In this document: positions 25,237 to 62,181 of the stretch, one piece after another
Numbering within the stretch: the first letter of the stretch is position 1
How the letters are laid out: each line of letters begins with the position of its first letter
Virus record (IMG/VR): IMGVR_UViG_3300027659_000025
DNA from: an uncultured virus (IMG/VR IMGVR_UViG_3300027659_000025)
Lineage: Duplodnaviria > Heunggongvirae > Uroviricota > Caudoviricetes
Strand: one strand, 5' to 3'
DNA: 64,000 nt
The notes under the pieces: model-generated
Told to the model about the DNA's origin: nothing
The model's database searches: none
Seen by the model: the letters and a program-made list of their open reading frames with translations, nothing else
Program-made: the position numbers and the translations under genes

Positions 25237-25263
25237 AAGCAGTTTAAAGTCCTGCTCAGGACT
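25237..25263 (-). ncRNA. H-type pseudoknot motif, copy 3, followed by T17
   Basis: AGTC-CTGAGCAG-GACT-TTAAAC-TGCTT. Confidence 0.6.
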
Positions 25264-27153: not shown

Positions 27154-27183
27154 TTCGCTCTCCAGAGCTAGGTTAATGTTAAA

Positions 27184-27355: not shown

Positions 27356-27396
27356 ATAACCCCTATTGGTTATCATATAAGATACCGTTTTTTCCG
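27356..27396 (-). promoter_or_regulatory. Class I promoter motif, copy 3
   Basis: 31-bp core identical to copies 1 and 2. Confidence 0.75.
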
Positions 27397-44600: not shown

Positions 44601-47600
44601 GTGGTGCTGCAATAGCTGTAATAGTTTGTGCAGCAGCAGCTGAGAATACTTTTAATTGACTATAAAAAGCTTTTAATCTTAGTTTGGCTAATTCTATAAA
44701 ATCTAATAAAGGCTGCAATGAATTTCCAAAATCTTTTTTAAGATCTACTCTACCTCCAAAAGAAACTTTTTCACCAGTTTTTAATGTTTTTGTAAAGTCT
44801 TTAAGAAGATTTCCAGTAGGTGCTTTAAATGTAAATGCTTCCCATAAATTTATACCCCCACTTGCATAATATGGCAAATTTCTTTTTAGATTTGTAAACA
44901 TTAGCGCAATTGCACTACCTAAACCTTGTTGAGTTGCTTTTATTTGTGCCGGCTTAACAGGCTTATTAAAAATAGAATCATAAAAATCTAAAGGACCTCT
45001 AGCAGCTTTAGAAAAAATACTTGATTTTCCTGTAAATTTTTCAGTAAGGCCAACAAACCCAACATATAGTTGTCTTCCTAAAATTTCTATTATATTGCTA
45101 ATATCTCTAATCAGTCTACCACCGCCGTCTTTTCCAAGCAAAGCCCATATTAATAAAGGAACTCCAAGAGTAACAGCATCTAAAATGCTTATACTTTCTA
45201 ATAAAGCAGTAGAAAGAACAAGTCCAGCAGCTATTGCAATTTTAGGATCTTGAAAAATGCTTACGAACTTTTTAGTAACTCCTGCGCCTGGCAGTAATGA
45301 AGATAAGTAATCTGTTATGCCTAATACTGCTGGCTTCTTTTTAGTTGCTGCACTACCAAAGAAAAAAGTTTTAGCAAACTTTCTAAAATCTTTATTTAAT
45401 ATTGCGAGTAAAATAGAAGCTGTAGCTAGTACTCTTATTAAATTGTTCTCAACTAAAACACCAATAACTGGAAATACAAAAGTTGCAACGGAATAAACAG
45501 CTTCTAAAGCTGTTTTAACTCCTTCTGGAATTTTAATTAAACTGTTTAAAGCACTGTTTAAAAAATACGGTAATGCCTCAATAGTTGCATTTAATATATT
45601 AAAAAATCCTTTTATAGCACCTTCAGCAAATCCTGCAAAAGCTGCTCCACCAATTGTTGCAAAAGCTGGTGTTAAAAAAGAAACTAAATCTTTTAGACTT
45701 CCATTTAAAAGCGCTGCAAAATAAGAAAACACAGAAAGTTTTACAATAGAGTTATCACTTAAAAGCAATAATGATGCAATAATTGAACCACCAATTGATT
45801 TACTTAGCGTTTGGCCCAATTGATTAACGTCCATCTGCATTATTCTATTAATAGACTCTTTAATGCTAATTCCAAATTTATTACTTTGTTGTTTTATTGT
45901 AGTATAAATACTTAAAAATAAAAGACTAACGCGTTTTTTAAATTCATCAAGTGCTAATTCTGTTTTAGATAAGTTACTCGTATATTGATATATTTCATTA
46001 ATAGTATCTGGCCAATACGAATTACCAACGACTTTATCGTAAATATCTAAAAAGTTATTTTTAACTTTCTTCGCAAATAAAAATATTCTATCTTCAACTT
46101 TTGTTAAAATATCGACAGTTTTTTGATATATTTTTCTGAACAGCACTAAAAGATCTTCAAAAATTTCACCTACTTTAATGTTACCTAAAAATTTAAAATC
46201 AAATTTAACAAAAGAAATATCTGTAGGTATTTTACTAATTAAGCGATTAATATAGTTTAAAAAGTTTTGAAACTCATTTCTAATTTTATTTTTTAAAGAT
46301 ATAAAATACTTTACAAAGCTTAAATCAACAAGTTCGTTACCAATTTCATTTGTTAGTCCTTTAAAAAATCCTCTTATAAATACAAAGAGATCAGTTAAAA
46401 CTTTCTGTATTACATCTACACTTTTTCTTAATAGAGCAGGATTAAGGGTAATACTCGGGAATATGTCAACGCCACTTATTGTACTTCCTAAAAAGTTTCC
46501 TAATCTTTTTCCTATTTTATTTGCAGTGCTTTCATTGAAAACGTCATTATAGGCATCTTCATAAGCTTCTCTCAATGCTAAAATTTGTAATTGAATAGGA
46601 TAAATTTTATACCTGATTTTAGGTAAAATAACTCTTTCATAAACTGCAGAAAGCACCTCTCCAAGTCGTTCAAAATAATTTAATGTTCGATCAAACCTAG
46701 TATCACGAATCTTTAAGAAAGTGTTATCAACAATATTTAAATAAACCAAAAGATCTTGTACACCAAATAAAAGATCTTGAATACCAAAGCTCCTAAAGCC
46801 TTCTGTTAATATAAAAGAAGTATTTTGTAAAGTGTCTTTCAAACTTTTTCGTTCAACATTTAAATCTGCAAGTCTCTGCTTAAATGTTACTAAATCACTT
46901 GACCAAAAAAGCTTTACCCAAGCTCTTTCAAGACTTGTGTCTTCAAAAAGATTAAATGTTTCTTTAAGTTCAGTCTTAAGTAATCTTAGAGGTCTTAATA
47001 AATTTAATTTAAAAAAGTAAACTTCATATGCAATACTTCTTAAAAATTGACGAAAATCAACATCAATTGTTTGAATTGGAGTCCGAATAAGAGGAATTAA
47101 GCCTCCTAAGTTTTCTGCAAGAATTACAAAAAAGTCAGAAAATGGATTTGATCTAGCGTTCTTATCTACAGATGCATAAAATTCATCCAGAGTTTTATTA
47201 AAAGCTAATATAGGTAATTGATCTAATAAAGAGGTTTCTTTATCAGTTCCTTTGCCAGTTAATAAGTCTAGTGATATTTTTACCTTTGTTACAAGGCCTA
47301 ATTCTTTTGTTAAATCATCATCAAGAAAACTTAAAACATCTTTTATTTTTTGAATTGCTGCTAATCTTATTCCAGTTTGTGTTATAGTAGTAATTGGTTT
47401 ACTAAGATCAAAATTAATAAGGTCATTTATAATAATATCTTTTGGTTCAATTAGTTTAAATTTTGTAAAATAATTAGAAAAAGACAAACGAGCTGCTTCT
47501 AACTTAAATCTTGCAGTTAGTGAAAACTCGTCAATATTATAGCTAAGATCTATTAAAAGTTTTGAAAGTCTATCAGAAGTTCCTAAATACTTGTTTACTT

Positions 47601-51133: not shown

Positions 51134-51612
51134 TAGTTTGCTCTCCACCAAAATCTTGCGCCACTATTTACTTGAAGTGGCATAATAAGTTTCTTAACAT
51201 TGCCTGGAACTTTATTTGCAGAGATTACGTTAGAAAGTGTAATTGAGCCAATAGTAAGATTTTCTACAGATCCAGTATCATCTAATAAACCATCATTATT
51301 TAATAAATGATAAGCTAATTCTATTGTTCCAGTTGTGATTCTTTTAGGAACTGTTGTAGAAGACAATTCTATTTCTATTCCTAATTTTGGATCAAAATAT
51401 ATTCCTGTTCTAGGAAAAGCAAGAGCTTGGGAATCACTTACAGCAACTCCAACCCAATCTAGATTATCCATTGCAGCTGTTGCAGTAACTAATGCTTGTG
51501 CTTTTTGAGTAGCATTTGCTTCAGTCCAAGCTGCAACATCAAGACGATCTTCAAAATAGGTGTCTGCTTCTGAAACAGTCGCGTAAGAGTTAGTGCCTTT
51601 AGCGAGTGCCAT
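51133..51612 (-). CDS. Head-tail adaptor protein
   Basis: NSYATVSEADTYF...QALAFPR; directly after the capsid gene. Confidence 0.75.
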   Translation of the reverse strand: MALAKGTNSYATVSEADTYFEDRLDVAAWTEANATQKAQALVTATAAMDNLDWVGVAVSDSQALAFPRTGIYFDPKLGIEIELSSTTVPKRITTGTIELAYHLLNNDGLLDDTGSVENLTIGSITLSNVISANKVPGNVKKLIMPLQVNSGARFWWRAN

Positions 51613-51626: not shown

Positions 51627-52814
51627 TTATGAATGGAAAACTGGCAAAATACCTAAGCTTAATGCAGAGCTTGCTTTACGAATCCAAGTTCCAGTTGTAG
51701 CAGCAAGAGTACCAGAAGCAACGCTAGCTAGCGCTGTTGGAGTACCGCCTTCAACAACTTTTAGATAGTCTGCGTTTGCTGGAAATACAGAGTCTAGACC
51801 AGCCCAGTTATAACCGGCAGGGTGCATTACATAACCCCAACGATACCAAACTGAAGTTGAACCGCCACCTTTATATGCAGCTGCATCACGATAGATTTCG
51901 ACTTGCTCAGGAACCATCAAAGCTTCCATAGCAAGAGCGCCGGGTAGCACAATAAATGAAGTTTTAGTACCAACAATATCAATACCAGCGCCAGTGTTAA
52001 TCTTGGTTAGCTCTGCACTGCTAAAGCCTTGAGAAGCTCTGGTTTGAATAAGTCGGAACTTACCTTGAAAGATGGTGTTAAAGTTGATATTGCCATCTGT
52101 AACCATTGAAGTATCAACAAGATTAGCAGAACGCAATGATGCCATTACTTCAGGGCTAGTAACAAGATAAGCAAAATCAGGCTCATAGTCTTTGTATGCT
52201 TGGCCAAAAGCACGTAGAAAGCCTTCAGCACGGGAAGCACCTTGATATGCCGCAGTAGCATCAATAACAGGCTTTGCAGCACCTAGATCTACATAGAAAC
52301 CATAACGCTTGCTTGTAGGATCATTATCAAAAGTCTGACCACCTAGACCAGTACTACCAGATCCTGCAGCAGCTCCGTTCATTACTTCTGAAAGAGCAAC
52401 ACCACGAAGAATTGATAGAACTGCATCATGCTCGTCTTGAGCACGTGTTTCACCAAAATCACGACCAACTTTTGCTAAACCATCTACTTGAGTAACAACT
52501 TGCTGCATGTTAACTTTAGTAGCGCCATGTGTACGAACAGTTTTAATATAACTTACATAGTCTGAGCTGTAAGTAGTACCAGAACCAGCTGCAGAGTCAG
52601 TTAGTGAAGCTACGTTAATTGTTGGGTTTAAAGGTTTAAACCAACGAACTTGACCAGTAAAGGTCTCTGTTGAAGTATCAATAAGCGGATTAGAACCGAC
52701 AATACCAGTGCCTGAAAGTTTACGAGCATTAGTATAGGCTTCATCTGAATATGCACTAATAGCTTCTTGTAGAACAAAGTTATCAGCACCAGATAGGTTT
52801 GTTTTAACAGTCAT
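51627..52814 (-). CDS. Major capsid protein
   Basis: 395 aa after the scaffold; RWGYVMHPAGYNW C-terminal motif; optimised codons. Confidence 0.85.
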   Translation of the reverse strand: MTVKTNLSGADNFVLQEAISAYSDEAYTNARKLSGTGIVGSNPLIDTSTETFTGQVRWFKPLNPTINVASLTDSAAGSGTTYSSDYVSYIKTVRTHGATKVNMQQVVTQVDGLAKVGRDFGETRAQDEHDAVLSILRGVALSEVMNGAAAGSGSTGLGGQTFDNDPTSKRYGFYVDLGAAKPVIDATAAYQGASRAEGFLRAFGQAYKDYEPDFAYLVTSPEVMASLRSANLVDTSMVTDGNINFNTIFQGKFRLIQTRASQGFSSAELTKINTGAGIDIVGTKTSFIVLPGALAMEALMVPEQVEIYRDAAAYKGGGSTSVWYRWGYVMHPAGYNWAGLDSVFPANADYLKVVEGGTPTALASVASGTLAATTGTWIRKASSALSLGILPVFHS

Positions 52815-52824: not shown

Positions 52825-53511
52825 CTAGCGTCTGCCAGAGAGTTTTCCTTCTCTAGCTAATTTAAGAACTTCATCTTGGGATAATGAGAAAAGAGATTTT
52901 CCGTCAAGTCCTGAAGAAGTATTTGGGGTTTTTGTTGTCGATGAGCTACCAGAACCACTAGATACTTTGGATTTAATGAGGAAAGCGTTTTCCTCAGATT
53001 CTGCAAATTGTCTTACGAAGTCTTTCAGAGAAACCCCTGATTTATGACGCCAACCACCGTTATCATCTTGAGTGAGTTGCTCAACAACTTCACGATAAGC
53101 CATGTTAAATGCACTATCATTTTTGAAACTGTAAGTCCCTAAAGCATTACGAAGCTCCATGTCGCGAGTCAGCTCTACAACACGTTTTTCGTAAACACTT
53201 CTTTGGGCGCGTTCTTCTGCAAGTTGCAATTCTAAAGCTTCTTTGTGTTTACCATCTTCTTGAAGTCTTTTAATTTCTTCTTGTTTACGAAATTGTTCAA
53301 TCTCTGCTAATTTTCTTAAAGCATCATCTCTAGAGCTATAAGCGCTGTCGAGTTTTGTTTTAATAGCTTTAACAGCTTCTTTTACTTTTTCTTCAACAAG
53401 TTTTTGAACAGGATCTACAGAATTTACAACACTAGGTGATTCTGTAGTTGTTGTTTCTATAGATGCTTCATCTTCAATATTTTGGTTATTTTGTTCTGGA
53501 TTGTCTGACAT
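52825..53511 (-). CDS. Capsid scaffolding protein
   Basis: Acidic N-terminus, coiled coil, SGSGS linker; immediately upstream of the capsid gene. Confidence 0.75.
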   Translation of the reverse strand: MSDNPEQNNQNIEDEASIETTTTESPSVVNSVDPVQKLVEEKVKEAVKAIKTKLDSAYSSRDDALRKLAEIEQFRKQEEIKRLQEDGKHKEALELQLAEERAQRSVYEKRVVELTRDMELRNALGTYSFKNDSAFNMAYREVVEQLTQDDNGGWRHKSGVSLKDFVRQFAESEENAFLIKSKVSSGSGSSSTTKTPNTSSGLDGKSLFSLSQDEVLKLAREGKLSGRR

Positions 53512-53599: not shown

Positions 53600-53617
53600 G
53601 GGTTAATCTAACGGGTT
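53600..53617 (-). promoter_or_regulatory. Class II phage promoter motif, copy 4
   Basis: AACCCGTTAGATTAACCC upstream of scaffold/capsid. Confidence 0.7.
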
Positions 53618-53620: not shown

Positions 53621-56600
53621 CTAACCTACTCCGTACCATCCGTAATCACTTTCAAAATTATCAGGTATTTCTTTCAAAATATCTTCCTTTTTTAAAATAT
53701 CTGATTGTTTTAGAAGTCTATTACCAACTTTAGACTTGCCAGGAATTGGAATAAGCCCTAGCTCAATAGCTTCTTCTAAGTATTTATCGTACAATGCTTT
53801 AGGCAGCCCACGACTTAACATTTCGTCTAAAGTCATAGTTATAACATTTTTATCAAGCACTTCTGCATAAATGCCTCTAAGAGCTTTTCTTCCCTTTAAC
53901 ATCTCAGCTGCGTTTGCAAAAAATGCATCATGAATTGTGGAAGTTTGAACACCAGCTTTCTTTCCCCAAAGATGAAACTTTTTTACAATAACAGCATCAT
54001 TTGAATGATTACCATTAACTGCATATGCTGTTCTAGCTTTGCCTGCATCTGCAATATCATTTATTTTACCATCTTTATTTATAACTTGTTGCCACCATGT
54101 TGCTTCTGTTTTTTGAGGAACTTGTAAAATATTTGTAGTCCAAGTTCCATCTTTATTCTTGTAGTTTAATCTTTCTTCAAAAGATTGAGTAAAATTTTGC
54201 TCAATAATTTTACCATCAAAATTTACCCAAGGAATATTAGTCCAACTTTTTGGTAATTTATTTGCATAAAATAACTCAAACTCAGTAAGTGTTTTAAGCT
54301 CAAGTAACTCTGTTTTAAAATATTTACCACCTGTTCTTCTAGTTTCAGGTGTATCTATTCCATTTATAATTTCGCTTAAGGTTCCATTTGGTTTCCAAGC
54401 ACCAAAACGCTTCAAGATCTTTTCACTAACAGCTTCACCAGCTTTAATACCTAAAATTCTACTTATGTAATCAGGTAAAACATAACTTTTTTCCTTTTTA
54501 CCTCTAAGTGCAATTTTTGCAATTGTTTGCCAATCAAAGTTAGCTTTAGAAGGCTTTGCATTAGTAATATAATCTTGTGCAAGTCTGCCAAAGTATCTTG
54601 TAAATTCCTTTAAAATAGGCACTTGTTCACTTAAATACTCACTCATTATCTTAGCAATTTCTTTAAAATCATTTGGAGTAACAACTCTCTCATATGATTT
54701 TGACATCTTTTCAACAAGATCTTTTGTCTTAGGGTCTAAAAAATATAATTGTTCTAAGATATCATCACCAGGATCCATGCCTTTATTAAAAACATCTTTT
54801 ACATTTTGTCGAAGTTGTCTTAATTCTTCTGCAGTTTCTGGATCAAACTTATCATATCTAGCTATTCTAGCAGATATTTGATCTAATACAATTTCTCTAT
54901 CTGAAGCTTTAACAACTAAAGTATTTTCGTCTTTGTCTAAAACTTTTGCTAATTTACCTTCTACGTTTAAAATACCAGTTCTTTCACCTGCTCCGTAGAA
55001 AGTTACCATATTTTGTGCTTTAGCAGCCTTTCTTAAATCTTTTTCATTTAATCCTAGCTTTTCATTTAACTTTCTGAATCTAGGATCATTGTAAGTAGAA
55101 GCTGCAATTTCATCATATAGTCGTTTTTTCTGATTTGTTGGAACAACATTACTTAATTCTGCAAGTTGTTTATTGCGAGTTGTTAATGCAATAATTTGAG
55201 CACCAGATGAAGATGCGTCTTGTTCTAATGCAACAGAAATATCATAATCAGATAGTTTTGCTAGTGATGCTTTTGTATAATTACTAGAAAGATAATTATC
55301 AATCTTAGCAGTCTCTAATGCAAATCTTAAAAATTTATTTAGTTCTTCGCCATCAATCTTAGAAACAACTTCAGACTCCAAAATAGCTCTAATATCTGCA
55401 GGTTTCTTTTTTAGCATGTGATTGCCGATTTTAACTAAATCGGCTCTCCAACGTTGAGCTATTTTTTGTCTACCTGTAATTGTTAGCGAATTGTAACGAC
55501 CTTCAAAGAAATCGCTTAAGCCACCTAAAAAAGATCCTATTTGATCTTGAAAATCACTAAATTCTTCAACACTAAACTTTTGACTTTTAGCGGTATTTAA
55601 AAAAGGTCTAAATGTTTCTCCTGACTGTGGTCCAATTAAACCACGATCATAAATCCTTGCACGATGATCTATAAAAGGATGATTGCTAAAACTTTTACCT
55701 GATCCTCTTAGCCATTCCATTGCTTTAAAGCGCTCGTAAGTATCACCACGGCTTGCAATATATTTTCTGTATTCATTTAAATCATTATACTTTTGAGCAT
55801 TACCTCTATCATCTTCAAAGTATAATAATTTTTGAGCAAAATCAAAGTAATCTTCATCTATCTTATATTCAGCCTTTGCTGCCCAATTCAGAGCACTTAC
55901 AAAATCCTTATCGACAAACTCTTCAGGAAAATCGCTGAAACTAGAAGTAGATGTAATTGGAATTCTCGTATCTTCATAACCTAAAATACCACGGTCTATA
56001 AAATAAGTTTTATACCCTTCTCTAAAGATAAGTCGATTTTTATCTTCTGTTACACTTACTCTAAGACCTAAATCTACCTTTCTAGTCAATTGAGCATATT
56101 CTTGTACTCTAGGGTCTGTTACTCTAATATTATAGGATAATGTATCATAATATGGTCCAAAATATGTTCCACTCAATGCACTTTTTATTCTTCTCTTTTG
56201 AACACCAAATGTTTCAACTTCAAAGAACTTTTGTACATTTTTAGCTTCTAATATTTTCATTCCAAGAGCATACCATTTACGTCTATCGCCATTAATATTA
56301 GCAAGATTGTACAAATCTCTGCCTAATGCAACTGCAAATTGGTCTCTATCAGGGGTATCAGCTAAGCTAAGCCTATGAGCAAACTTTAAATAAAACTGTT
56401 GAAGCTCTCTGTCTGATAGTCGATTTTTGATTAACAAAGGAATTTTATAATCAAATGTATTTCTAAGTTCTTTTGCAATTTTAGGAGCAGTACTATCTTC
56501 CCATTTGTTTTTACTTAAAATATTTTTAATAAAATTATCATGTAAATCTTGTAACTGAACTGCACCTAGCACAGGGTCAAGATAATTGTCTTGCTGCAGC

Positions 56601-58252
56601 TTTTTTAAAACGTCTGAGTCACGCCGTATTTGTGTTTCAATTGCATCAGAAACGTTCATTACATCAAACTTAATTTGAGATTGAGCTACTGCTTTAAAGT
56701 TTTCCCAAACTTCAGGTTTATTTCTTTGACGTCCAAAAATAATTCTTAAATTATCAGCAACAACAGCGCGTTCATTGACACTCATTTTTTCAGACAGAGT
56801 TTCAACAACTTCATTAATAAACTTTTTATCTCTATCTAAGAGAACTTCACTTTCATTGACAAGTCTTAGATTATTAGATAGTACAGCAGGATTTGGCTGA
56901 TACAATCTAATATCTTCATATCTTCCGGTAATTGGATTAAACTTTAATTGATCTTCTCTTGGAGGCGATGCTAGGACTCTATTCTTAGTAGATTTCTTTG
57001 TATTCATTAACAAGCCTCTATAATTTGTTATAGAGAGCGTGCCATTTAATTCTCCAGACTGAAGTAGATAATAATCAATTAAAGTTTTCTTTAACTTGTC
57101 ATCTGAAATAAAGTCATCAACAGTAGATGCACCTAATTGCATTGCATCTAGTTTTTCTTTTGCATTAGCAAATTTAACTGTATCGTTTGGCAGTGTATAA
57201 CCGCTGTCAGTTAAACTCCTAAGCTCTTTAATACCAATTGAATTTCCTTCTGCATTGGTAAACTTATCTAATTGAAGCTGACCTGTTCTAAACAAATCAA
57301 CTTTCTGATAATCTCCTAAGTGTCTTAATTGAACTTCTTTTGTTTGCCTTAAAAGCCATTGATTATAAGACTCTCTTAAAGGTGTTAGACCATCATAATA
57401 TGCAACTTCTTTATCGCTTAACTTTTCTAAGTTTCTTTTCCTAACTTGAGCAACACCTTCAAGCTGAGAGATGTCACTCCAGGATTTAAAAACTGGAACT
57501 GTTGTTGAACGACAATGAAAGTGGGCCGGAGGCAAGCTGGCGGTGTTGGTGAGGGGGTAGATAGTCCCGTCTCGGTGCGCACACACTGGGGTGGTTCTCG
57601 CGTCCAGGACGGCCACATACTGCCAACCCAGGATCGCCTTTTCGTTGGCCCTGTAAATAGCATGATCGGCTTGTGTACTTACACTAGTAATTGCGGTAAC
57701 TACAAGACCTTTTGATTGTTGCCTTGTAATTGTGTGGATATTACCTTTTCTAACAGCTAACGCAATTTCATCAACTGTTTTGTTTTCAGCAATACCTTTT
57801 CTAATTACTGATTCTAATCTTTTCTTTTCACTTTCACTAATACCTGCCCAACCACCAGCAAGTGTTAAGTTTTTGTATAAAGGTTTTTCTAAAACAAACT
57901 CTTCAGCAATACGCCTGTTAGGTCGTTCTGTTTTCCAAATCTTACCTAATGCTGTTTCAACGTTTTGATAAGCATAAGAAGTTTGATCTGAAAACAAATC
58001 TAATAAAGATCTTTTAGTAGTATTAAATTTCTCTTGGTATGTCTTTAATAACTCTTTATCGATTTTTTCAAAAAGATCTTTTTGTCCATTTACAGACATG
58101 TTACCTTTTCGAATTAAATCATCAAGCCTAACAACATGACCGTCAATGACTAATTCAATTTTACCATTGACACGTCTTTCATAGAGTCTGATCATTGCAG
58201 CTCTATCTATTACTTTGTCGTATACTTTTGTATTAGCATTAACAGCTTCCAT
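53621..58252 (-). CDS. MuF (SPP1 gp7-like) head morphogenesis domain fused to a T7-type RNA polymerase; putative virion RNAP
   Basis: MuF motifs WQYVAVLDARTTPVC and PPAHFHCRS; RNAP motifs DHRARIY, DASSSGAQ, RKAAKAQNMVTFYG, NGNHSNDA, IHDAF. Confidence 0.9.
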   Translation of the reverse strand: MEAVNANTKVYDKVIDRAAMIRLYERRVNGKIELVIDGHVVRLDDLIRKGNMSVNGQKDLFEKIDKELLKTYQEKFNTTKRSLLDLFSDQTSYAYQNVETALGKIWKTERPNRRIAEEFVLEKPLYKNLTLAGGWAGISESEKKRLESVIRKGIAENKTVDEIALAVRKGNIHTITRQQSKGLVVTAITSVSTQADHAIYRANEKAILGWQYVAVLDARTTPVCAHRDGTIYPLTNTASLPPAHFHCRSTTVPVFKSWSDISQLEGVAQVRKRNLEKLSDKEVAYYDGLTPLRESYNQWLLRQTKEVQLRHLGDYQKVDLFRTGQLQLDKFTNAEGNSIGIKELRSLTDSGYTLPNDTVKFANAKEKLDAMQLGASTVDDFISDDKLKKTLIDYYLLQSGELNGTLSITNYRGLLMNTKKSTKNRVLASPPREDQLKFNPITGRYEDIRLYQPNPAVLSNNLRLVNESEVLLDRDKKFINEVVETLSEKMSVNERAVVADNLRIIFGRQRNKPEVWENFKAVAQSQIKFDVMNVSDAIETQIRRDSDVLKKLQQDNYLDPVLGAVQLQDLHDNFIKNILSKNKWEDSTAPKIAKELRNTFDYKIPLLIKNRLSDRELQQFYLKFAHRLSLADTPDRDQFAVALGRDLYNLANINGDRRKWYALGMKILEAKNVQKFFEVETFGVQKRRIKSALSGTYFGPYYDTLSYNIRVTDPRVQEYAQLTRKVDLGLRVSVTEDKNRLIFREGYKTYFIDRGILGYEDTRIPITSTSSFSDFPEEFVDKDFVSALNWAAKAEYKIDEDYFDFAQKLLYFEDDRGNAQKYNDLNEYRKYIASRGDTYERFKAMEWLRGSGKSFSNHPFIDHRARIYDRGLIGPQSGETFRPFLNTAKSQKFSVEEFSDFQDQIGSFLGGLSDFFEGRYNSLTITGRQKIAQRWRADLVKIGNHMLKKKPADIRAILESEVVSKIDGEELNKFLRFALETAKIDNYLSSNYTKASLAKLSDYDISVALEQDASSSGAQIIALTTRNKQLAELSNVVPTNQKKRLYDEIAASTYNDPRFRKLNEKLGLNEKDLRKAAKAQNMVTFYGAGERTGILNVEGKLAKVLDKDENTLVVKASDREIVLDQISARIARYDKFDPETAEELRQLRQNVKDVFNKGMDPGDDILEQLYFLDPKTKDLVEKMSKSYERVVTPNDFKEIAKIMSEYLSEQVPILKEFTRYFGRLAQDYITNAKPSKANFDWQTIAKIALRGKKEKSYVLPDYISRILGIKAGEAVSEKILKRFGAWKPNGTLSEIINGIDTPETRRTGGKYFKTELLELKTLTEFELFYANKLPKSWTNIPWVNFDGKIIEQNFTQSFEERLNYKNKDGTWTTNILQVPQKTEATWWQQVINKDGKINDIADAGKARTAYAVNGNHSNDAVIVKKFHLWGKKAGVQTSTIHDAFFANAAEMLKGRKALRGIYAEVLDKNVITMTLDEMLSRGLPKALYDKYLEEAIELGLIPIPGKSKVGNRLLKQSDILKKEDILKEIPDNFESDYGWYGVG

Positions 58253-58440: not shown

Positions 58441-58965
58441 TTATTTATTTTTTCTTTCCTTATATTTCATTACTGCTGCACCGGCACCAGCGGCACCAAT
58501 TGCTGTCCCAGCCTGCGCACCAATATTAATTGCTCTCATTGTTGCTTTTGCAAATTTACTACCAACAGCGCCACTTTTGACCATACGTGAAGCACCTTTT
58601 TTAATAGATGCGTCATATGCACCAGGTTTTTCAGAATATTTTGCTTTATATGCGTCTAAGCCAACTTTTTTTGTAATACGATCTTGCTGTGCTTCTACTC
58701 TTTTACCTGCAGGAATCATTGCGGCTGCACCTGCAATACCACCTACAAGAGTGCCTGCAAGACCACCGCCAAATCCTGCAGCAGCTAGCTTAGGAGTATC
58801 TTTTTTCTCTATTCCATCTTTACCTTTTTTGCTTGCTAATGCAGCTCCTGCTGCAGTACCGCCAATCATCATACCAGCGTTAAGAAATTTTTGTGCTTTT
58901 CCACTACCACTCTTAGAGGCATTTTTATTGCCCTTCATTGCTGCCGAACGTTCTGGATCTGCCAT
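58441..58965 (-). CDS. MADPERSAA-leader protein 5
   Basis: Shared 18-aa N-terminus; basic with Gly/Ala hydrophobic segments. Confidence 0.8.
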   Translation of the reverse strand: MADPERSAAMKGNKNASKSGSGKAQKFLNAGMMIGGTAAGAALASKKGKDGIEKKDTPKLAAAGFGGGLAGTLVGGIAGAAAMIPAGKRVEAQQDRITKKVGLDAYKAKYSEKPGAYDASIKKGASRMVKSGAVGSKFAKATMRAINIGAQAGTAIGAAGAGAAVMKYKERKNK

Positions 58966-58966
58966 T

Positions 58967-59389
58967 TTATTTATCCTTTTTATTTAAGTAAAGGTATGTA
59001 CCTGTTCCTGCAATTGCAGCTCCTGCGAGACCAATTTTTCCAATTTTCGTATTACGAGCTTTTACTTGTGAATTTAGTTCATTAAGAGTTTTAATAGCAC
59101 TTTGTGTTCTTTTTGTTTTGAGTTTATTATATGCGTCTATCTCTTCAATTTTTATTGTTCTCCAGGCGTCTCTATACTTTTTTTCGTCTTGAGCAAGCGT
59201 TTCTGCTTTAGATGCTAAAGTGCGTTTAGTTCTATCAATATCTCTTGTATTTAGAGTGTTTTTTGCAATTGTAGCTGCACCAAAATAACCAACACCAGCT
59301 GCTAATCCAATTTTTTGTTTATCTGAAAGGCCATTTTTAGAGGCATTCTTATTGCCCTTCATTGCTGCTGAACGTTCAGGATCTGTCAT
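58967..59389 (-). CDS. MADPERSAA-leader protein 4
   Basis: MTDPERSAAMKGNKNASK. Confidence 0.8.
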   Translation of the reverse strand: MTDPERSAAMKGNKNASKNGLSDKQKIGLAAGVGYFGAATIAKNTLNTRDIDRTKRTLASKAETLAQDEKKYRDAWRTIKIEEIDAYNKLKTKRTQSAIKTLNELNSQVKARNTKIGKIGLAGAAIAGTGTYLYLNKKDK

Positions 59390-59390
59390 T

Positions 59391-59753
59391 TTATTTTCCT
59401 TGAAAATCTTCTTTTATAGCTTTTGTTAATTTATAACCAGCGACACCGCCTACAACAGCAGCTCCAAGTTTAACCCCTTTTATTTGAGCTTTCAGTTTAG
59501 CCTGTTTAACAAATACATCAGCAGCACGAGATCTTTTTAACTCAGGATTAATTTTCTTATTTTCCCTTAGTTTCTTTTGTATTCTCTTAGCTTTTTCTAT
59601 CTCAGGTATTGTATTTGATATTTGTTTTGCGCCATAATAAGCCCCAGCTAACGCCCCAATTTTGTTTATTATGGAGCCTTTTTCAGCTGAAGCACCGTCT
59701 TTAGAGGCATTCTTATTGCCCTTCAATGCTGCTGAACGTTCAGGATCTGCCAT
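59391..59753 (-). CDS. MADPERSAA-leader protein 3
   Basis: MADPERSAALKGNKNASK. Confidence 0.8.
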   Translation of the reverse strand: MADPERSAALKGNKNASKDGASAEKGSIINKIGALAGAYYGAKQISNTIPEIEKAKRIQKKLRENKKINPELKRSRAADVFVKQAKLKAQIKGVKLGAAVVGGVAGYKLTKAIKEDFQGK

Positions 59754-59758
59754 TTTAT

Positions 59759-60115
59759 TTATCCTTTTGTTTTTGCTTGTTTAGCTTGCCTTAAAGTTGA
59801 AGCTAATGCAACACGAGGTGCTCTTTCTTTTTCAAACGCTGCAGAGTTTTTCTTAATTTCATTTAGCTGCTGCTGTCTTGCTTCGCGTGTTTTTGCTTTT
59901 GCAACTTCTGCAGGACTTAGAGTTTTCGCCTTTGCATCGTTTACAACTTCTTTAGCTCTTAAAGCTTTAAGCTTTCCTTTTCTAACCAGCAATGCAGCTG
60001 TAAGACCTGCTCCTGCAACACCTATTCCTATACCTACTTTTTGCTTAGTTGAAGCACCGTCTTTAGAGGCATTTTTATTGCCCTTCAATGCTGCTGAACG
60101 TTCTGGATCTGCCAT
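59759..60115 (-). CDS. MADPERSAA-leader protein 2
   Basis: MADPERSAALKGNKNASK. Confidence 0.8.
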   Translation of the reverse strand: MADPERSAALKGNKNASKDGASTKQKVGIGIGVAGAGLTAALLVRKGKLKALRAKEVVNDAKAKTLSPAEVAKAKTREARQQQLNEIKKNSAAFEKERAPRVALASTLRQAKQAKTKG

Positions 60116-60159
60116 TTTATTTATCCTTTTTGTTTATTTTTCATTACTGCTCTTTTTGT

Positions 60160-60588
60160 TCATTTCTTTTTATCTGCTGTAGGTTGTTTTACCTTTGAAG
60201 CTAGTGCAATGCCACCTGTTGCTCCTGCAACAATGCTGGCAGCTTTAATGGCTTTAGTTTTATTATTAAATTTAATATCTGTACCTATAACTTTGCTACG
60301 CGTGTTACCAAGTCTCTTGCCAGCTTCATAGTACTTTTCTGGCGCGACTCCCTTCCAGTATTCACGTTTACTACGGTCTACCTTTTCTTGAGCTTTGTTT
60401 AAAACTCTATTTTGCTTTGCTGTTAGCTCTATACGTGCTGGTCTTCTACCAACTGCAGCTAATGTATTACCTAAAAGACCGCCAACGGCACCATATCCAA
60501 CTTTTTCTCCTGTTGTAAGTGAAGCTTTACCACTCTTAGAGGCATTTTTATTGCCCTTCATTGCTGCCGAACGTTCTGGATCTGCCAT
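60160..60588 (-). CDS. MADPERSAA-leader protein 1
   Basis: MADPERSAAMKGNKNASK. Confidence 0.8.
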   Translation of the reverse strand: MADPERSAAMKGNKNASKSGKASLTTGEKVGYGAVGGLLGNTLAAVGRRPARIELTAKQNRVLNKAQEKVDRSKREYWKGVAPEKYYEAGKRLGNTRSKVIGTDIKFNNKTKAIKAASIVAGATGGIALASKVKQPTADKKK

Positions 60589-60600: not shown

Positions 60601-62181
60601 TTAAGGTTGAATTTCTTGCTGTTGATTCTCTATTTGAGATGCATATTGTTCATTTTGTCGTTGAATTAACATTTCTTGGTCTGCTGTAATTTCCATTCTA
60701 CCAGCTTCATCATCATAATCAGGTGGTACAATATCGTTTTGTTTAAGAATTTGTAACCAAATAGATCTCGGCACAAGTCCTTGTTGATACCATTCAGTAA
60801 CAAGTCTTAACCAATCTGCACCTAGTGGAACTGGATTAAAGTCAGCTGATAGACTAAAAGTAACGTCTTGAGGGGTTAACTCTAAATTATATCTCCAGTT
60901 AATCATGAAAGCAATAACTTGTTTCATAGTATTGCTAATCTTAGTATTTAAAGAACCTAATTGAGCAGTTTGTGCAGCATTTCTAATTTCAAGAGCAACA
61001 CCAGATTGAGCAGATTCAGGACTTAACATTCTGATGCCCATCTTAGCCATTTCTTCAATAGAAGCTGAAATGGCTCTATCCATGTCTTGTAATGCTGCTG
61101 TAGGTGTTTCTAAAACTGTTGCACTGTCACCTTGTCTCAGCCTAATCCAAGAACCTAATCCTGCTGCAGTTACATTATCAAAATCTTCATCACTCATGTC
61201 AGAAATAACAATTGGAGTGTATGTAGATGCACCATATAGTAAATGATTTCTTCTACTTATTTTGTTATAAAGATTTAATTCTTTATCAACAACAGGCATA
61301 AGAACAGGCTCAGCTGGAGCTACATTACCATTTAATGGCCATGCAGGAACTATTGTTAATCGTTCACCGTTTGATAGAATATTTGTAATTGTATCAATCA
61401 AAACAAATACAGGTTTTTTTAAAGAATATTCTTTCTGAACTTGTCCATTTACAATTTGAACTGAATTAGCATCACTAGTTTGTTGAAATACTCTTATTTG
61501 ATAAAAGCCATCTTCATCAAGCTCATGTACCTTTACAGTATCGCGATATGTTGCATGAAATTCATTTAACTCAAAGAACTCTTCATAAGATCTAACAATA
61601 ATTCTATTTAAAATTGACTTACCACGACTGTCAGAACTAACTCTCCAATTTATTACAGATTCAGCTTGCCATAAAATTGGATATGGTTTAAGTTTTGCTT
61701 TCTCTTCTAAAGAAAGAGAATCTGGATTTTCAATAACAGGATAATCAATATAAACCCAAGCACGGCTTGTTTGAAGCTCTTCCCATAAAGCTGTATCAAG
61801 AAAACTGATAATACTATTATCATCTTGACAAAACTCATTCATAATCCAATTGAAAACTTCAGGAGGAAGTTCTTCTGGTAATGATAGTGTTGGTTGTTTT
61901 CTTAATAAACCACCTACAAGCATTTTGGCAAATTGAGCTACAATACCTGGCAACTCTGCTTCTGCTTTGTAGAAATCATATTGACGTTGTGTCATTGACG
62001 GTGAAAACGGTAATAAAAGATTTGTAAAACTATTGACATCAATAAAACCATCATAGTCTTTTACAAATCTTTCTCCACTACAAACAGCTCTGCTTCGTTT
62101 CCATAATACTCTGAGAGACTCGTACTCAGCATTAGGATCAGCTACTGTTTTATTTGCAGAAGCAGCATTGACTACAGCCAT
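60601..62181 (-). CDS. Portal protein (DUF4055-type)
   Basis: 526 aa upstream of MuF; VINWR, SGVALEIR, DF motifs. Confidence 0.8.
   Translation of the reverse strand: MAVVNAASANKTVADPNAEYESLRVLWKRSRAVCSGERFVKDYDGFIDVNSFTNLLLPFSPSMTQRQYDFYKAEAELPGIVAQFAKMLVGGLLRKQPTLSLPEELPPEVFNWIMNEFCQDDNSIISFLDTALWEELQTSRAWVYIDYPVIENPDSLSLEEKAKLKPYPILWQAESVINWRVSSDSRGKSILNRIIVRSYEEFFELNEFHATYRDTVKVHELDEDGFYQIRVFQQTSDANSVQIVNGQVQKEYSLKKPVFVLIDTITNILSNGERLTIVPAWPLNGNVAPAEPVLMPVVDKELNLYNKISRRNHLLYGASTYTPIVISDMSDEDFDNVTAAGLGSWIRLRQGDSATVLETPTAALQDMDRAISASIEEMAKMGIRMLSPESAQSGVALEIRNAAQTAQLGSLNTKISNTMKQVIAFMINWRYNLELTPQDVTFSLSADFNPVPLGADWLRLVTEWYQQGLVPRSIWLQILKQNDIVPPDYDDEAGRMEITADQEMLIQRQNEQYASQIENQQQEIQP

What the first reader, a model, noticed from the sequence alone, without database searches (positions are those of the whole stretch)
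53621..58252. MuF head-morphogenesis domain fused to a complete T7-type RNA polymerase: a putative portal-loaded virion RNAP in a two-polymerase siphovirus
Seen: the first ~250 aa carry MuF/SPP1-gp7 motifs (LDARTTPVC, PPAHFHCRS). The C-terminal half carries all single-subunit RNAP motifs with catalytic Asp residues intact (DASSSGAQ, RKAAKAQNMVTFYG, IHDAF). The gene lies between portal and scaffold, and a second, divergent RNAP lies at 22741-24972. Established: MuF/gp7 proteins are packaged in low copy near the portal and are known to carry C-terminal toxin cargos; N4-like podoviruses use an injected virion RNAP to express a second RNAP. Inference: this phage uses MuF as the packaging and delivery tag for an injected early RNAP, giving an N4-like cascade built from different parts in a siphovirus. 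I cannot check whether homologues have already been characterised.
Basis: partly seen in the sequence, partly recalled or inferred. Interest (0 to 1): 0.9.

Follow-up and report, generated by a model that had tools for sequence, protein, structure and literature searches.

The report
Head-anchor protein fused to RNA polymerase
A long-tailed phage joins its portal-associated minor head protein (MuF) to a complete, apparently active T7-type RNA polymerase, so it probably carries its own transcription enzyme inside the capsid to start infection, a design that also sits unrecognised in cultured marine phages.

Summary
A single 1543-codon ORF at 53621-58252 (minus strand, not plus) encodes three parts: a complete MuF/SPP1-gp7-type minor head protein (about residues 1-370), a helical linker (371-565) and a full T7-like single-subunit RNA polymerase (566-1543) with every catalytic residue conserved.

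The fusion is old and widespread. At least 387 protein clusters carry it, and all 23 deeply divergent full-length representatives keep MuF. It is also present, annotated only as "minor head protein-like", in the cultured dU-DNA roseophages DSS3_VP1 and DSS3_PM1 (Naomviridae) and in EBPR siphovirus 1. The window's phage shares 20 colinear genes with DSS3_VP1, including a second, ordinary T7-like polymerase.

Indirect evidence favours a virion-borne, co-ejected enzyme:
- The gene sits in the portal/head late module.
- MuF is the only such gene found in the window.
- The 1296 residues after MuF contain no cysteine, as in the phage's structural proteins and in N4 gp50 (0 of 3500). The free polymerase has 9.

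Packaging, ejection and the polymerase relay are not shown. By sequence and fold the enzyme is nearer T7 than N4 vRNAP.

I found no paper describing this design. Earlier agents of this scan noted it on other DNA. I class it as a new variant of a known kind.

The parts
53621..58252 (-). MuF-RNAP fusion gene, 1543 codons plus stop, uninterrupted
57143..58252 (-). MuF / SPP1-gp7-type minor head protein module (about residues 1-370), with the only two cysteines (C224, C247) in the invariant motifs LDARTTPVC (57581-57607) and PPAHFHCRS (57506-57532)
   Evidence: Pfam and PHROGs. AF2 model with pLDDT 85. It superposes on free-standing 340-400-aa minor capsid / head morphogenesis proteins in BFVD, e.g. 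TM 0.81 and rmsd 3.6 over 371 columns. Invariant columns.
56558..57142 (-). Helical linker/adaptor region (about residues 371-565), moderately conserved, with no known family
   Evidence: It lies between the MuF match and the start of the T7-like superposition. Nearly invariant L391, L406, G413, L471, N493, R503.
53624..56557 (-). Complete T7-like single-subunit RNA polymerase module (about residues 566-1543). Motif A DASSSGAQ is at 55196-55219, motif B RKAAKAQNMVTFYG at 54992-55033, NGNHSNDA at 53993-54016 and motif C IHDAF at 53921-53935. There are no cysteines.
   Evidence: Profile against PDB: T7 RNAP E 9e-25. AF2 model with pLDDT 82.5 and pTM 0.79. VIA Z 29.2, rmsd 3.3 A, 522 residues aligned to T7 RNAP 34-883. 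Invariant D1012, K1078, Y1086, G1087, D1419, D1442. Cysteine count.
60601..62181 (-). Portal protein (DUF4055, phrog_145), the expected docking partner of MuF
   Evidence: 46% identical to the DSS3_VP1 portal
58441..60588 (-). Five tandem paralogous small ORFs between portal and MuF-RNAP. They share an invariant N-terminal peptide MxDPERSAAxKGNKNASK. They are absent at this place in relative G002.
   Evidence: (repeat family D1)
52825..53511 (-). Scaffolding protein, directly downstream
51627..52814 (-). Major head protein
53600..53615 (-). Copy of motif Z (CCCGTTRRWTTAACCC), a promoter-like element lying just after the MuF-RNAP stop and before the scaffold gene. Other copies are at 6481-6496, 21692-21707 and 28644-28659.
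   Evidence: 4 copies against 0.07 expected. The same motif occurs at the same gene junctions in relative G002, 8 copies.
22741..24972 (-). Second, free-standing conventional T7-like RNA polymerase (743 aa, 9 cysteines)
   Evidence: PF00940 E 2.8e-63. phmmer against T7 RNAP E 1.3e-40. Only E 0.02-0.03 to the fused polymerase. 32% identical to DSS3_VP1 gene 00056 'RNA polymerase'.
27356..27386 (-). Motif X, a 31-nt element (conserved core plus short hairpin), candidate early promoter. Identical copies are at 25579-25609 and 1505-1535.
   Evidence: 3 exact copies against 0 expected. Two copies with the same core and a compensatory stem are in G002, also upstream of its second RNAP.
25238..25256 (-). 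Motif Y (hairpin followed by TWTAAACTGCT). Four copies lie within 2 kb upstream of the second RNAP gene; the others are at 26345-26363, 26870-26888 and 27184-27202.
   Evidence: 4 copies against 0.05 expected; sequence read
38653..48486 (-). Tape measure protein, 3277 aa, no cysteine. It marks the phage as long-tailed and non-contractile in type.
   Evidence: Pfam TMP_3 E 1.6e-45; cysteine count

Best explanation
The gene encodes a virion RNA polymerase built from two known parts. The N-terminal MuF module is inferred to dock on the portal during procapsid assembly, as SPP1 gp7 does. This would place a few copies of the whole 177-kDa protein inside the head next to the DNA end that leaves first. 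The protein is made late, together with the portal and from a weaker transcription unit than the scaffold and coat genes. At the next infection it is inferred to leave through the portal and the long tail with the DNA and to refold in the cell. Its T7-type polymerase would then transcribe the first phage genes without host RNA polymerase or new protein synthesis. Those first genes are inferred to include the free 743-aa T7-like polymerase, which then serves the multi-copy promoters in front of the replication, head and tail modules. Shown here: the domain architecture, the intact catalytic site, the fold, the conservation of the fusion, the genomic context and the cysteine-free composition. 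Inferred: packaging, ejection, timing, and which promoters each enzyme reads.
For: 1. One uninterrupted ORF carries both domains.
2. The polymerase looks complete and active.
- A family profile hits T7 RNAP at E 9e-25. It aligns P0001 D1012, K1078, Y1086, G1087, H1416/D1419 and H1441/D1442 to T7 D537, K631, Y639, G640, H784/D787 and H811/D812.
- D1012, K1078, Y1086, G1087, D1419 and D1442 are invariant in 32 sequences reaching down to about 20% identity.
- The AF2 model (pLDDT 82.5) superposes on T7 RNAP residues 34-883 at Z 29.2.
3. The MuF part is a whole minor head protein. It matches 340-400-aa free-standing MuF proteins end to end.
4. No other MuF was found among the 65 window ORFs scanned.
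5. The fusion is conserved.
- 117 of the 120 best clusters list both Pfam domains.
- 23 of 23 divergent full-length representatives keep MuF.
- The one apparent free-standing form (P0153) proved to be part of a 1504-aa MuF-RNAP ORF.
6. The context is the late head module, next to the portal. In 10 of 14 related loci the portal ORF ends within about 60 nt of the inferred start of the fusion gene.
7. The 1296 residues after MuF have 0 cysteines.
- Structural proteins have 0-0.5% cysteine (TMP 0 of 3277, coat 0 of 395).
- Replication enzymes have 1.6-2% and the free RNAP has 9 of 743.
- 131 of 141 full-length homologues also have 0 cysteines after MuF.
- N4 gp50 has 0 of 3500, while N4 RNAPII has 4 of 269 and 9 of 404.
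8. The two-polymerase layout is shared by G002, G003 and DSS3_VP1.
9. Published anchors (passages read).
- SPP1 gp6 binds gp7 and targets a few copies to the procapsid interior, and virions lacking gp7 are about 25% infectious (PMC6316719).
- muf genes lie just after portal genes and carry C-terminal cargo proposed to be delivered at injection (PMC5576092; PMC5512222).
- A siphovirus with a structural-protein-fused vRNAP feeding a second RNAP exists (PMC10770324).
Against: - There are no virion proteomics or transcription data for any member. Rihtman et al. 2021 (main text and the two held supplements) contain none.
- Delivery of MuF cargo into cells is itself only a hypothesis in the papers read.
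- The physical genome ends are unknown. The 'terminal repeat' of relative G002 is a 58-nt overlap inside tape-measure tandem repeats. No early region can therefore be placed by position.
- I could not assign a promoter class to either polymerase.
- Motif X also resembles a sigma-70 promoter (-10 TATGAT with a weak -35), so host RNA polymerase could start the cycle.
- A copy of the multi-copy motif Z also lies upstream of the second RNAP gene.
- One related record (G004, 67.9 kb, estimated 98% complete) shows only the fused polymerase.
- A 177-kDa protein would have to unfold to pass a tail whose length I infer at about 0.5 micrometre.
- The cysteine argument is partly confounded by shared ancestry.
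Confidence: 0.6

Rival explanations
1. The protein is packaged and ejected as above, but its main job is not gene expression. It would either pull the genome into the cell by transcribing it (as RNA polymerases do for T7 DNA entry) or lay down primers for the first round of replication. Host RNA polymerase or the free phage polymerase would do the early gene expression.
For: The structural evidence is the same as for the best explanation. Motif X resembles a sigma-70 promoter, so host RNAP could express the early genes and the free RNAP. The tail is very long, with a TMP of 3277 aa, so an active DNA-entry aid is plausible. This is an inference from T7 and N4 biology that I recall and did not read here.
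Against: Transcription-driven entry and early expression are not exclusive. In N4 the same enzyme is credited with early transcription (passages of PMC5512222). Nothing in the sequence separates these roles.
Confidence: 0.15
2. The fused polymerase acts only inside the producing cell as a late-gene polymerase. It might be tethered to the portal or procapsid to couple late transcription or DNA processing with packaging. It is not delivered to the next host, and the MuF part does its ordinary morphogenetic job.
For: The gene is expressed with late structural genes, to judge by its position. Two polymerases with different specificities could divide middle and late genes. At least three conserved intergenic motif classes exist.
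Against: A late polymerase has no need to be covalently tied to a low-copy portal-bound protein. Yet the fusion is kept in 23 of 23 divergent representatives. The cysteine-free composition matches virion proteins and N4 gp50, not this phage's intracellular enzymes. The multi-copy promoter-like motif Z already covers replication, head and lysis modules alike, leaving no obvious separate late class.
Confidence: 0.12
3. The polymerase module is a catalytically dead relic that serves only as bulky internal or ejection protein cargo.
For: The module is very divergent. It has no phmmer hit to any PDB chain as a single sequence. A single-sequence search found only 160 representatives (E<=0.001) in 1.84 billion proteins.
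Against: Both metal-binding aspartates and the motif B lysine, tyrosine and glycine are invariant across the family. The whole T7 fold, including the N-terminal domain and the specificity-loop region, is retained.
Confidence: 0.03

Closest known systems
Coliphage N4 virion RNA polymerase gp50 and the N4 polymerase relay (Schitoviridae)
   Same: Both are single-subunit, T7-superfamily polymerases encoded among late virion genes of a phage that also encodes a second, free T7-like polymerase (N4 gp15/gp16). Both are entirely cysteine-free, unlike the free polymerase. Both have the same overall polymerase fold (N4 mini-vRNAP Z 19.5).
   Different: It is not a member of that family.
- The family profile finds T7 RNAP at E 9e-25 but no N4 vRNAP chain at E<=1.
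- The fold is nearer T7 (Z 29.2) and mitochondrial RNAP (Z 27.1) than N4.
- N4 gp50 is 3500 aa, with the polymerase in the middle, an N-terminal injection region and a C-terminal encapsidation region with a metallopeptidase domain (PMC5512222 passages). Here the carrier is an N-terminal MuF and the polymerase ends the protein.
- The host virion is long-tailed, not a podovirus.
MuF / SPP1 gp7 minor head proteins and MuF-fused polymorphic toxins (Jamet et al. 2017, PMC5576092)
   Same: The N-terminal MuF domain is shared (Pfam PF04233). So is the position of the gene after the portal gene. Both use the architecture 'MuF carrier plus C-terminal enzymatic cargo', and both carry a proposed delivery of the cargo at DNA injection.
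   Different: The cargo is a 980-aa RNA polymerase that serves the phage's own programme, not a toxin with an immunity gene. No integrase or repressor family was hit among the 65 window ORFs scanned, so the phage looks lytic, whereas MuF toxins are reported from temperate phages. 'RNA polymerase' occurs 0 times in the main text of Jamet et al..
Thermus phage P23-45 tape-measure-fused virion RNAP gp96 and non-virion RNAP gp64 (PMC10770324)
   Same: Both are long-tailed siphoviruses in which a polymerase is covalently fused to a virion structural protein that leaves the particle at infection. In P23-45 it transcribes pre-early genes, including the gene of a second, free polymerase (abstract and passages). 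That is the same relay logic.
   Different: The P23-45 enzymes are two-barrel polymerases related to cellular RNAPs. Its carrier is the tape measure protein, and its two enzymes arose by duplication. Here the fold is T7-like and the carrier is the portal-bound MuF. The two enzymes are barely alignable to each other (E 0.02-0.03).
Naomviridae roseophages DSS3_VP1 / DSS3_PM1, gene DSS3VP1_00028 'minor head protein-like protein'
   Same: This is a true orthologue: 29% identity over 97% of the protein. It holds the same place between portal and coat genes. 20 colinear shared genes include the second RNAP. These phages have a siphovirus morphotype (passage of PMC8323127).
   Different: Those phages have dU in place of dT. 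The window's deaminase-like ORF (3125-3445) has no match to the DSS3_VP1 dCTP deaminase at E 1e-4, so no such modification can be claimed here. The polymerase part of 00028 is not mentioned in the paper or its supplements.
Phage T7 RNA polymerase
   Same: It is the best sequence and structure match. All catalytic motifs are shared, as are the DxRGR motif region, the N-terminal domain and the specificity-loop region.
   Different: T7 RNAP is a free 883-aa early-gene product made in the infected cell and is not a virion protein. The module here is so divergent that a single-sequence search finds no PDB chain. It also carries insertions that the model predicts with low confidence (model residues 881-935).

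Membership tests
T7-like single-subunit RNA polymerase (Pfam PF00940) | Family profile match above the curated cut-off | tested here: met
   39.4 bits against a cut-off of 22, E 4.5e-10. The family profile hits T7 RNAP in PDB at E 9e-25.
T7-like single-subunit RNA polymerase (Pfam PF00940) | Catalytic residues: motif A Asp, motif B Lys/Tyr/Gly, motif C His-Asp (T7 D537, K631, Y639, G640, H811-D812) | tested here: met
   They align residue for residue. D1012, K1078, Y1086, G1087 and D1442 are invariant in 32 sequences. The roles of the T7 residues are recalled textbook knowledge.
T7-like single-subunit RNA polymerase (Pfam PF00940) | Whole fold, including the N-terminal domain | tested here: met
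   VIA Z 29.2, rmsd 3.3 A, 522 residues; model 173-1144 aligns to T7 34-883. Foldseek E 1.7e-18.
T7-like single-subunit RNA polymerase (Pfam PF00940) | Promoter-specific, template-dependent RNA synthesis | not testable with these tools
   Needs purified protein.
MuF / SPP1 gp7 minor head protein (Pfam PF04233) | Family profile match above the curated cut-off, and the conserved motifs | tested here: met
   40.5 bits against a cut-off of 29.6. phrog_241 E 5e-54. Invariant D217, C224, PP241-242, H244, C247, R248, S249.
MuF / SPP1 gp7 minor head protein (Pfam PF04233) | Complete fold of a free-standing MuF protein | tested here: met
   111 BFVD matches at E<=0.001. Free-standing 340-400-aa minor capsid / head morphogenesis proteins are covered at TM up to 0.81. 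No solved structure matched at E<=0.001.
MuF / SPP1 gp7 minor head protein (Pfam PF04233) | Gene immediately downstream of the portal gene | tested here: met
   In the window it is downstream of the portal but separated by six small ORFs. In 10 of 14 related loci the portal ORF ends within about 60 nt of the inferred start. The starts were inferred from match positions, not checked ORF by ORF.
MuF / SPP1 gp7 minor head protein (Pfam PF04233) | Binds the portal and is present in a few copies inside the capsid | not testable with these tools
   Needs virion proteomics or cryo-EM. This is known for SPP1 gp7 only (PMC6316719 passage).
N4-like virion RNA polymerase (Schitoviridae gp50) | Sequence relationship to the N4 vRNAP polymerase domain closer than to other single-subunit RNAPs | tested here: not met
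   The profile search of PDB lists T7, mitochondrial RNAP and N4 RNAPII, but no N4 vRNAP chain at E<=1. By fold, N4 mini-vRNAP scores Z 19.5 against 29.2 for T7.
N4-like virion RNA polymerase (Schitoviridae gp50) | Giant protein with a central polymerase, an N-terminal injection region and a C-terminal encapsidation region with a zincin peptidase domain | tested here: not met
   The protein is 1543 aa. The polymerase runs to the C-terminus. The N-terminus is MuF. No peptidase family was hit. The architecture of gp50 is as described in PMC5512222.
N4-like virion RNA polymerase (Schitoviridae gp50) | Hairpin-form promoters upstream of early genes | tested here: inconclusive
   Motifs X and Y contain short hairpins with compensatory stem changes and cluster upstream of the second RNAP gene. 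Their use by this enzyme is unknown, and X also looks sigma-70-like.
N4-like virion RNA polymerase (Schitoviridae gp50) | Present in virions and injected | not testable with these tools
   The only proxy is the shared absence of cysteine: 0 of 1296 here and 0 of 3500 in gp50.
MuF polymorphic toxins (Jamet et al. 2017) | C-terminal toxin domain with an adjacent immunity gene, in temperate phages | tested here: not met
   The C-terminal domain is an RNA polymerase. The downstream gene is the scaffold. No integrase or repressor family was hit in 65 ORFs of the 64-kb window. About 15 kb of the genome lies outside the window.
Two-barrel virion RNAPs (P23-45 gp96, crAss-like phi14:2 gp66) | Double-psi beta-barrel catalytic core | tested here: not met
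   The fold is the right-hand T7 type.

The most novel reading that the evidence does not exclude
MuF-RNAP is an independent, previously undescribed route to a virion RNA polymerase. An ordinary portal-bound head protein has been turned into the loading and ejection handle for a T7-type enzyme. A large, globally spread lineage of long-tailed aquatic phages, including the cultured dU-DNA Naomviridae, would then run its whole programme without host RNA polymerase. The few-copy hairpin-bearing motif X would be the injected enzyme's promoter class and the multi-copy motif Z that of the free polymerase.
Probability: 0.4. Interest if true: 0.8.

Novelty: new variant of a known kind. Interest (0 to 1): 0.7.

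Why it matters
Virion RNA polymerases are known from only a few phage groups: N4-like phages, phiKZ/AR9-type jumbo phages, crAss-like phages and P23-45. Each case changed ideas about how phages escape dependence on the host.

Three things would follow if this reading is right:
- Loading a polymerase into a capsid needs nothing more exotic than fusion to the common MuF head protein. It would be the first case where MuF cargo is a phage housekeeping enzyme rather than a toxin.
- It would be a direct functional test of the long-standing but unproven idea that MuF cargo is delivered at DNA injection.
- The family is abundant in metagenomes, and two cultured members with a tractable host exist (DSS3_VP1 and DSS3_PM1 on Ruegeria pomeroyi DSS-3). 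The question is therefore testable at the bench now.

In those phages it may also explain how a dU-substituted genome is first transcribed.

A compact, cysteine-free, highly divergent T7-type polymerase with its own promoters could also interest people who make in vitro transcription tools.

Tried and rejected
- Portal-MuF complex. I ran complex prediction with the portal (526 aa, 16-row alignment) and MuF residues 1-390 (32-row alignment). It gave 'no answer' (score 0.00). This is neither support nor evidence against binding.
- Own assembly. It is not held. The nearest record, G001 (23 kb), does not contain the gene.
- Near-identical DNA in deposited phages: none.
- Single-sequence search of PDB with the whole protein: no hit. 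A family profile was needed.
- Solved structures resembling the MuF and linker model: none at E<=0.001, only generic helical proteins.
- Genome ends from relative G002. Its 'direct terminal repeat' is a 58-nt overlap inside tape-measure tandem repeats, so it gives no physical ends and no entry order. The repeated ends of the DSS3_VP1 record may likewise be an assembly overlap, and I did not use them.
- Free-standing form of this polymerase clade. The one candidate I followed (P0153, 785 aa) is a mis-called part of a 1504-aa MuF-RNAP ORF. I did not check the other short hits, most of which look like contig fragments.
- Recent duplication of the two polymerases. Rejected: BLASTP E is 0.02-0.03, at motifs A and C only.
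- dU-DNA in this phage. Not supported: no match to the DSS3_VP1 deaminase at E 1e-4 and no HD-hydrolase hit.
- Assigning motifs X, Y and Z to one or the other polymerase. Both X and Z are conserved between the window and G002, so they give no discrimination.
- Rfam on the whole window: only three tRNAs.
- Literature searches for the fusion returned nothing on it. They cover only the held open-access library.
- A tree of all single-subunit RNAPs was not built. At about 13-19% identity to T7 it would not be reliable.

Full report
**Observation**

The stated interval holds one ORF of 1543 codons, on the minus strand.
- Pfam places Phage_Mu_F at residues 146-251 (40.5 bits, cut-off 29.6). It also finds RNA_pol PF00940 (39.4 bits, cut-off 22).
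- PHROGs gives 'head morphogenesis' phrog_241 over residues 5-391 (E 5e-54) and 'RNA polymerase' phrog_414 (E 9e-18).
- The portal (60601-62181), scaffold (52825-53511) and major head protein (51627-52814) flank the gene on the same strand.
- The 743-aa ORF at 22741-24972 is a conventional T7-like polymerase: PF00940 E 2.8e-63, and phmmer against T7 RNAP E 1.3e-40.

Every ORF of 80 aa or more that I used is on the minus strand.

**Domain map**

I aligned the region after residue 399 with 31 homologues. From it I built an AlphaFold model with mean pLDDT 82.5 and pTM 0.79.
- Foldseek finds T7 RNAP and mitochondrial RNAPs at E about 1e-18.
- The second-look aligner gives T7 RNAP Z 29.2 (rmsd 3.3 A, 522 residues), with model residues 173-1144 on T7 residues 34-883.
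- The same aligner gives yeast mitochondrial RNAP Z 27.1, N4 mini-vRNAP Z 19.5, N4 RNAPII Z 14.0 and full N4 gp50 Z 13.5.

The polymerase module is therefore residues about 566-1543. It is a whole T7-type enzyme with its N-terminal domain, not a catalytic fragment.

A second model of residues 1-620 (pLDDT 85.1) has no solved counterpart at E<=0.001. It matches 111 predicted viral structures at E<=0.001.
- The best is a 1463-aa protein whose length equals DSS3_VP1 gene 00028. That it is this protein is my inference.
- Next come free-standing 340-400-aa 'minor capsid' or 'head morphogenesis' proteins, covered almost end to end (TM up to 0.81).
- A 1192-aa protein of Xanthomonas phage Xp12, named as an ADP-ribosyltransferase, is also among the top hits.

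So residues 1 to about 370 are a complete MuF protein, and residues 371-565 are a helical linker of no known family.

**Is the polymerase active?**

A profile of the family hits T7 RNAP at E 9e-25, mitochondrial RNAPs at about 1e-16 and the two N4 RNAPII subunits at 5e-7 and 1.5e-4. No N4 vRNAP chain is listed at E<=1.

The printed alignment puts these residues together:

| P0001 | T7 RNAP |
|---|---|
| D1012 | D537 |
| K1078, Y1086, G1087 | K631, Y639, G640 |
| H1416, D1419 | H784, D787 |
| H1441, D1442 | H811, D812 |

It also aligns the DxRGR region. D1012, K1078, Y1086, G1087, D1419 and D1442 are invariant in 32 sequences that go down to about 20% identity. The roles of the T7 residues are textbook knowledge that I recall, not something I read here. 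Nothing in the sequence suggests a dead enzyme.

**How widespread, and is the fusion kept?**

- The word-indexed search found 387 clusters at E<=0.001 among 7999 candidates scored. Of the best 120 (61-84% identity, the query itself included), 117 list both Pfam domains and 3 list MuF only. Where a source names them, the name is 'SPP1 gp7 family putative phage head morphogenesis protein'. They sit on contigs of up to about 90 kb.
- An exhaustive phmmer search with the polymerase part alone found only 160 representatives at E<=0.001 in 1.84 billion proteins. This is a tight, very divergent clade, and ordinary T7-like polymerases are not reached.
- I scanned 23 divergent full-length representatives. 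All 23 carry Phage_Mu_F near residue 140-250, and 16 also pass PF00940 at E<=0.001.
- One hit looked like a free 785-aa polymerase (P0153). In its contig it is part of a 1504-aa ORF with MuF at the front, downstream of a portal gene.
- IMG/VR returned 62 related loci, one of them (L003) identical to the window.

**Deposited and cultured phages**

tblastn of the 50,697 phage records gave 930 records with a match, nearly all to the MuF part only. Four records, which are three phages, cover 80% or more of the protein:
- EBPR siphovirus 1 (59% identity);
- roseophage DSS3_VP1, present as two records (29% identity over 97%);
- roseophage DSS3_PM1 (29% identity over 97%).

In DSS3_VP1 the gene (00028, 'minor head protein-like protein') lies between the portal and the coat gene. 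That phage also has a separate 'RNA polymerase' (00056).

Twenty window ORFs have colinear matches in DSS3_VP1:

| Gene | Identity |
|---|---|
| portal | 46% |
| coat | 42% |
| second RNAP | 32% |
| DNA polymerase | 39% |
| primase-helicase | 50% |

The window's phage is thus a distant relative of the Naomviridae. Those phages have a siphovirus morphotype with 230-240 nm tails (passage of PMC8323127). With a 3277-aa tape measure protein, a tail of roughly half a micrometre is my inference for the window's phage.

Two complete-looking relatives (G002 at 78.7 kb, G003 at 81.1 kb) also have both polymerases. G004 (67.9 kb) and the partial EBPR record show only the fused one.

**Evidence for a virion-borne enzyme**

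None of it is direct.
1. MuF biology. SPP1 gp6 binds gp7 and brings a few copies into the procapsid, and virions without gp7 are about 25% infectious (PMC6316719 passage). muf genes sit just after portal genes, and many carry C-terminal cargo proposed to enter the host at injection (PMC5576092 and PMC5512222 passages).
2. No other MuF gene was found among the 65 window ORFs scanned. The fused protein must therefore also supply whatever MuF does in assembly.
3. Position. The gene follows the portal. In 10 of 14 related loci the portal ORF ends within about 60 nt of where the fusion gene should begin (starts inferred from match positions).
4. Expression level. A conserved promoter-like motif (Z) lies just after the stop of the fusion gene and before the scaffold gene, both here and, in two copies, in G002. 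This fits low expression of portal and MuF-RNAP and high expression of scaffold and coat.
5. Composition. The protein's only cysteines are C224 and C247, both in invariant MuF motifs. The following 1296 residues have none.
   - In the same genome the tape measure (0 of 3277), coat (0 of 395), a tail protein (0 of 597) and the portal (2 of 526) are cysteine-poor.
   - DNA polymerase (11 of 620), ribonucleotide reductase (13 of 634), primase-helicase (9 of 545) and the free RNAP (9 of 743) are not.
   - 143 full-length family members were held, and 141 have the MuF motif I used as a landmark. After it, 131 have no cysteine, 5 have one, 4 have two and 1 has three.
   - N4 gp50 has 0 of 3500, while N4 RNAPII has 4 of 269 and 9 of 404.
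   - Many of the 141 are close relatives, so the count overstates independent events. It does include most of the 30-37% identity representatives.

**What remains open**

I found three classes of conserved minus-strand intergenic motifs.
- Motif Z (CCCGTTRRWTTAACCC) has four copies in the window against 0.07 expected. It has eight copies in G002, at the same gene junctions: before the replication module, before the scaffold, and 2-4 kb upstream of the second RNAP.
- Motif X is a 31-nt element with three identical copies. Its core, CGGAAA..GGTATCTTATATGA, is followed by a 5-bp hairpin. G002 has two copies with the same core and compensatory stem changes. In both phages two copies lie between a Z copy and the second RNAP gene.
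- Motif Y is a 6-bp hairpin followed by TWTAAACTGCT. All four copies lie within 2 kb upstream of the second RNAP gene, and two are followed by T runs of 13-27 nt.

A relay in which the injected enzyme reads the few X (or Y) sites and the free enzyme reads the many Z sites is attractive. It is not shown, for two reasons. X also resembles a sigma-70 promoter, and both X and Z are conserved between the two phages, so they do not discriminate.

The physical genome ends are unknown. The two polymerases are not recent duplicates (BLASTP E 0.02-0.03).

**Comparison with what is known**

- The enzyme works like the N4 virion polymerase in the proposed logic and shares its cysteine-free make-up. It fails the membership tests for that family in both sequence and architecture.
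- It is a member of the T7-like polymerase family and of the MuF family.
- It differs from MuF polymorphic toxins in cargo and context.
- The nearest conceptual precedent is Thermus phage P23-45, whose tape measure protein carries a two-barrel virion polymerase that transcribes the gene of a second polymerase (PMC10770324, abstract and passages). The relay is the same; the fold and the carrier are different.

**Literature**

My searches were:
- 'MuF' with 'virion RNA polymerase';
- 'Naomviridae' with 'RNA polymerase';
- 'head morphogenesis' with 'single-subunit RNA polymerase' and 'fused';
- 'MuF', 'RNA polymerase' and 'phage' (15 papers; I read passages of one of them for this question);
- 'MuF', 'polymorphic toxin', 'capsid' and 'SPP1'.

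None returned a description of this fusion.
- Iyer et al. 2017 state that N4-like virion RNAPs occur only in N4-like phages.
- Rihtman et al. 2021 never mention RNA polymerase in the main text. Their supplementary gene table calls 00028 'minor head protein-like'.
- The dU-enzyme paper PMC12697855 does not mention RNA polymerase.

The library holds only open-access papers and preprints, so a report elsewhere cannot be excluded.

Earlier agents of this scan noted the same fusion, its lack of cysteine and an intron in relatives, on other genomes. I re-tested the first two here and saw the third in EBPR siphovirus 1.

**Verdict**

It is a new variant of known kinds (virion RNA polymerases and MuF-cargo fusions). 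It is widespread and can be tested at once in the cultured Naomviridae.

Noticed in passing
window 58441-60588 (-): Five tandem paralogous ORFs (118-174 aa) lie between the portal and MuF-RNAP. They share an invariant N-terminal peptide (MxDPERSAAxKGNKNASK), followed by divergent basic, Gly/Ala-rich sequence. There are no Pfam or PHROG hits. The shared leader in the head module recalls the capsid-targeting leaders of packaged internal proteins (a recalled analogy to T4). The array is absent at this place in relative G002.
   Followed up: partly
window 1505-1535, 25579-25609, 27356-27386 (-); G002 64598-64611 and 64060-64073 (-): Motif X has three identical 31-nt copies, each about 25-35 nt upstream of a start codon. 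The conserved core is followed by a 5-bp hairpin whose stem changes in a compensatory way in a 60-70% identical relative. It is a candidate early promoter, and it also resembles a sigma-70 promoter.
   Followed up: partly
window 25222-25264, 26329-26371, 26854-26896, 27168-27210 (-): Motif Y is a 6-bp hairpin (one stem position changes T-A to A-T) followed by the conserved TWTAAACTGCT. Two copies run into uninterrupted T tracts of about 13 and 27 nt. It is not a canonical intrinsic terminator, because about 10 nt separate the stem from the T run.
   Followed up: partly
window 6481-6496, 21692-21707, 28644-28659, 53600-53615 (-); eight copies in G002: Motif Z (consensus ACCCCGTTAAATTAACCCTAA in G002) stands in front of gene modules at the same junctions in both phages. 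It is probably the main phage promoter. It shares ATTAACCC with the T3 promoter, a resemblance I recall and did not test.
   Followed up: partly
window 28575-28873: This is a 299-nt non-coding stretch between the tail genes and the small-gene region. It is much richer in G+C than the 34% genome and is followed by a Z motif. Rfam finds nothing there. It could be a structured RNA or a packaging or terminus site.
   Followed up: no
L002 (EBPR siphovirus 1) 11179-11405 and 11359-12039: The orthologous gene is split into gp47 and gp49 around an HNH endonuclease gene. Rfam finds a group I intron-like match there (40.5 bits, below the gathering score of 50, E 1.6e-8), close to polymerase motif B. Several metagenomic homologues of about 1610-1775 aa (best local alignment covering about 63-72% of the query) and loci with longer match spans suggest similar insertions.
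   Followed up: partly
window 38653-48486 (-): The tape measure protein has 3277 aa and not one cysteine, implying a tail of roughly 0.5 micrometre (my inference). In G002 the contig ends fall inside tandem repeats of this gene, which produces a spurious 58-nt 'direct terminal repeat'.
   Followed up: partly
window 3125-3445 (-): A small dCMP/cytidine deaminase-like ORF (Pfam E 6e-7) is present. It has no match to the DSS3_VP1 dCTP deaminase at E 1e-4. No thymidylate synthase or HD hydrolase was hit in the window, so whether this phage modifies its DNA as Naomviridae do is open.
   Followed up: partly
DSS3_VP1 record (L065, L001, L066), e.g. 19201-19346, 29396, 45925-46568: A multi-copy motif of the form ATAGGKNNCGTTAAAGAGGGG recurs through the genome, in at least a dozen copies by eye. 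Three copies stand just upstream of the portal gene. It is probably the counterpart of motif Z in the cultured relative.
   Followed up: no
window 16114-16590 (-) and 51133-51612 (-): A SegE-type GIY-YIG endonuclease ORF sits between the exonuclease and the primase-helicase and has a counterpart in DSS3_VP1. The ORF right after the coat gene hits Pfam DnaT_2 (E 4e-23), which is odd for a head-module gene.
   Followed up: no
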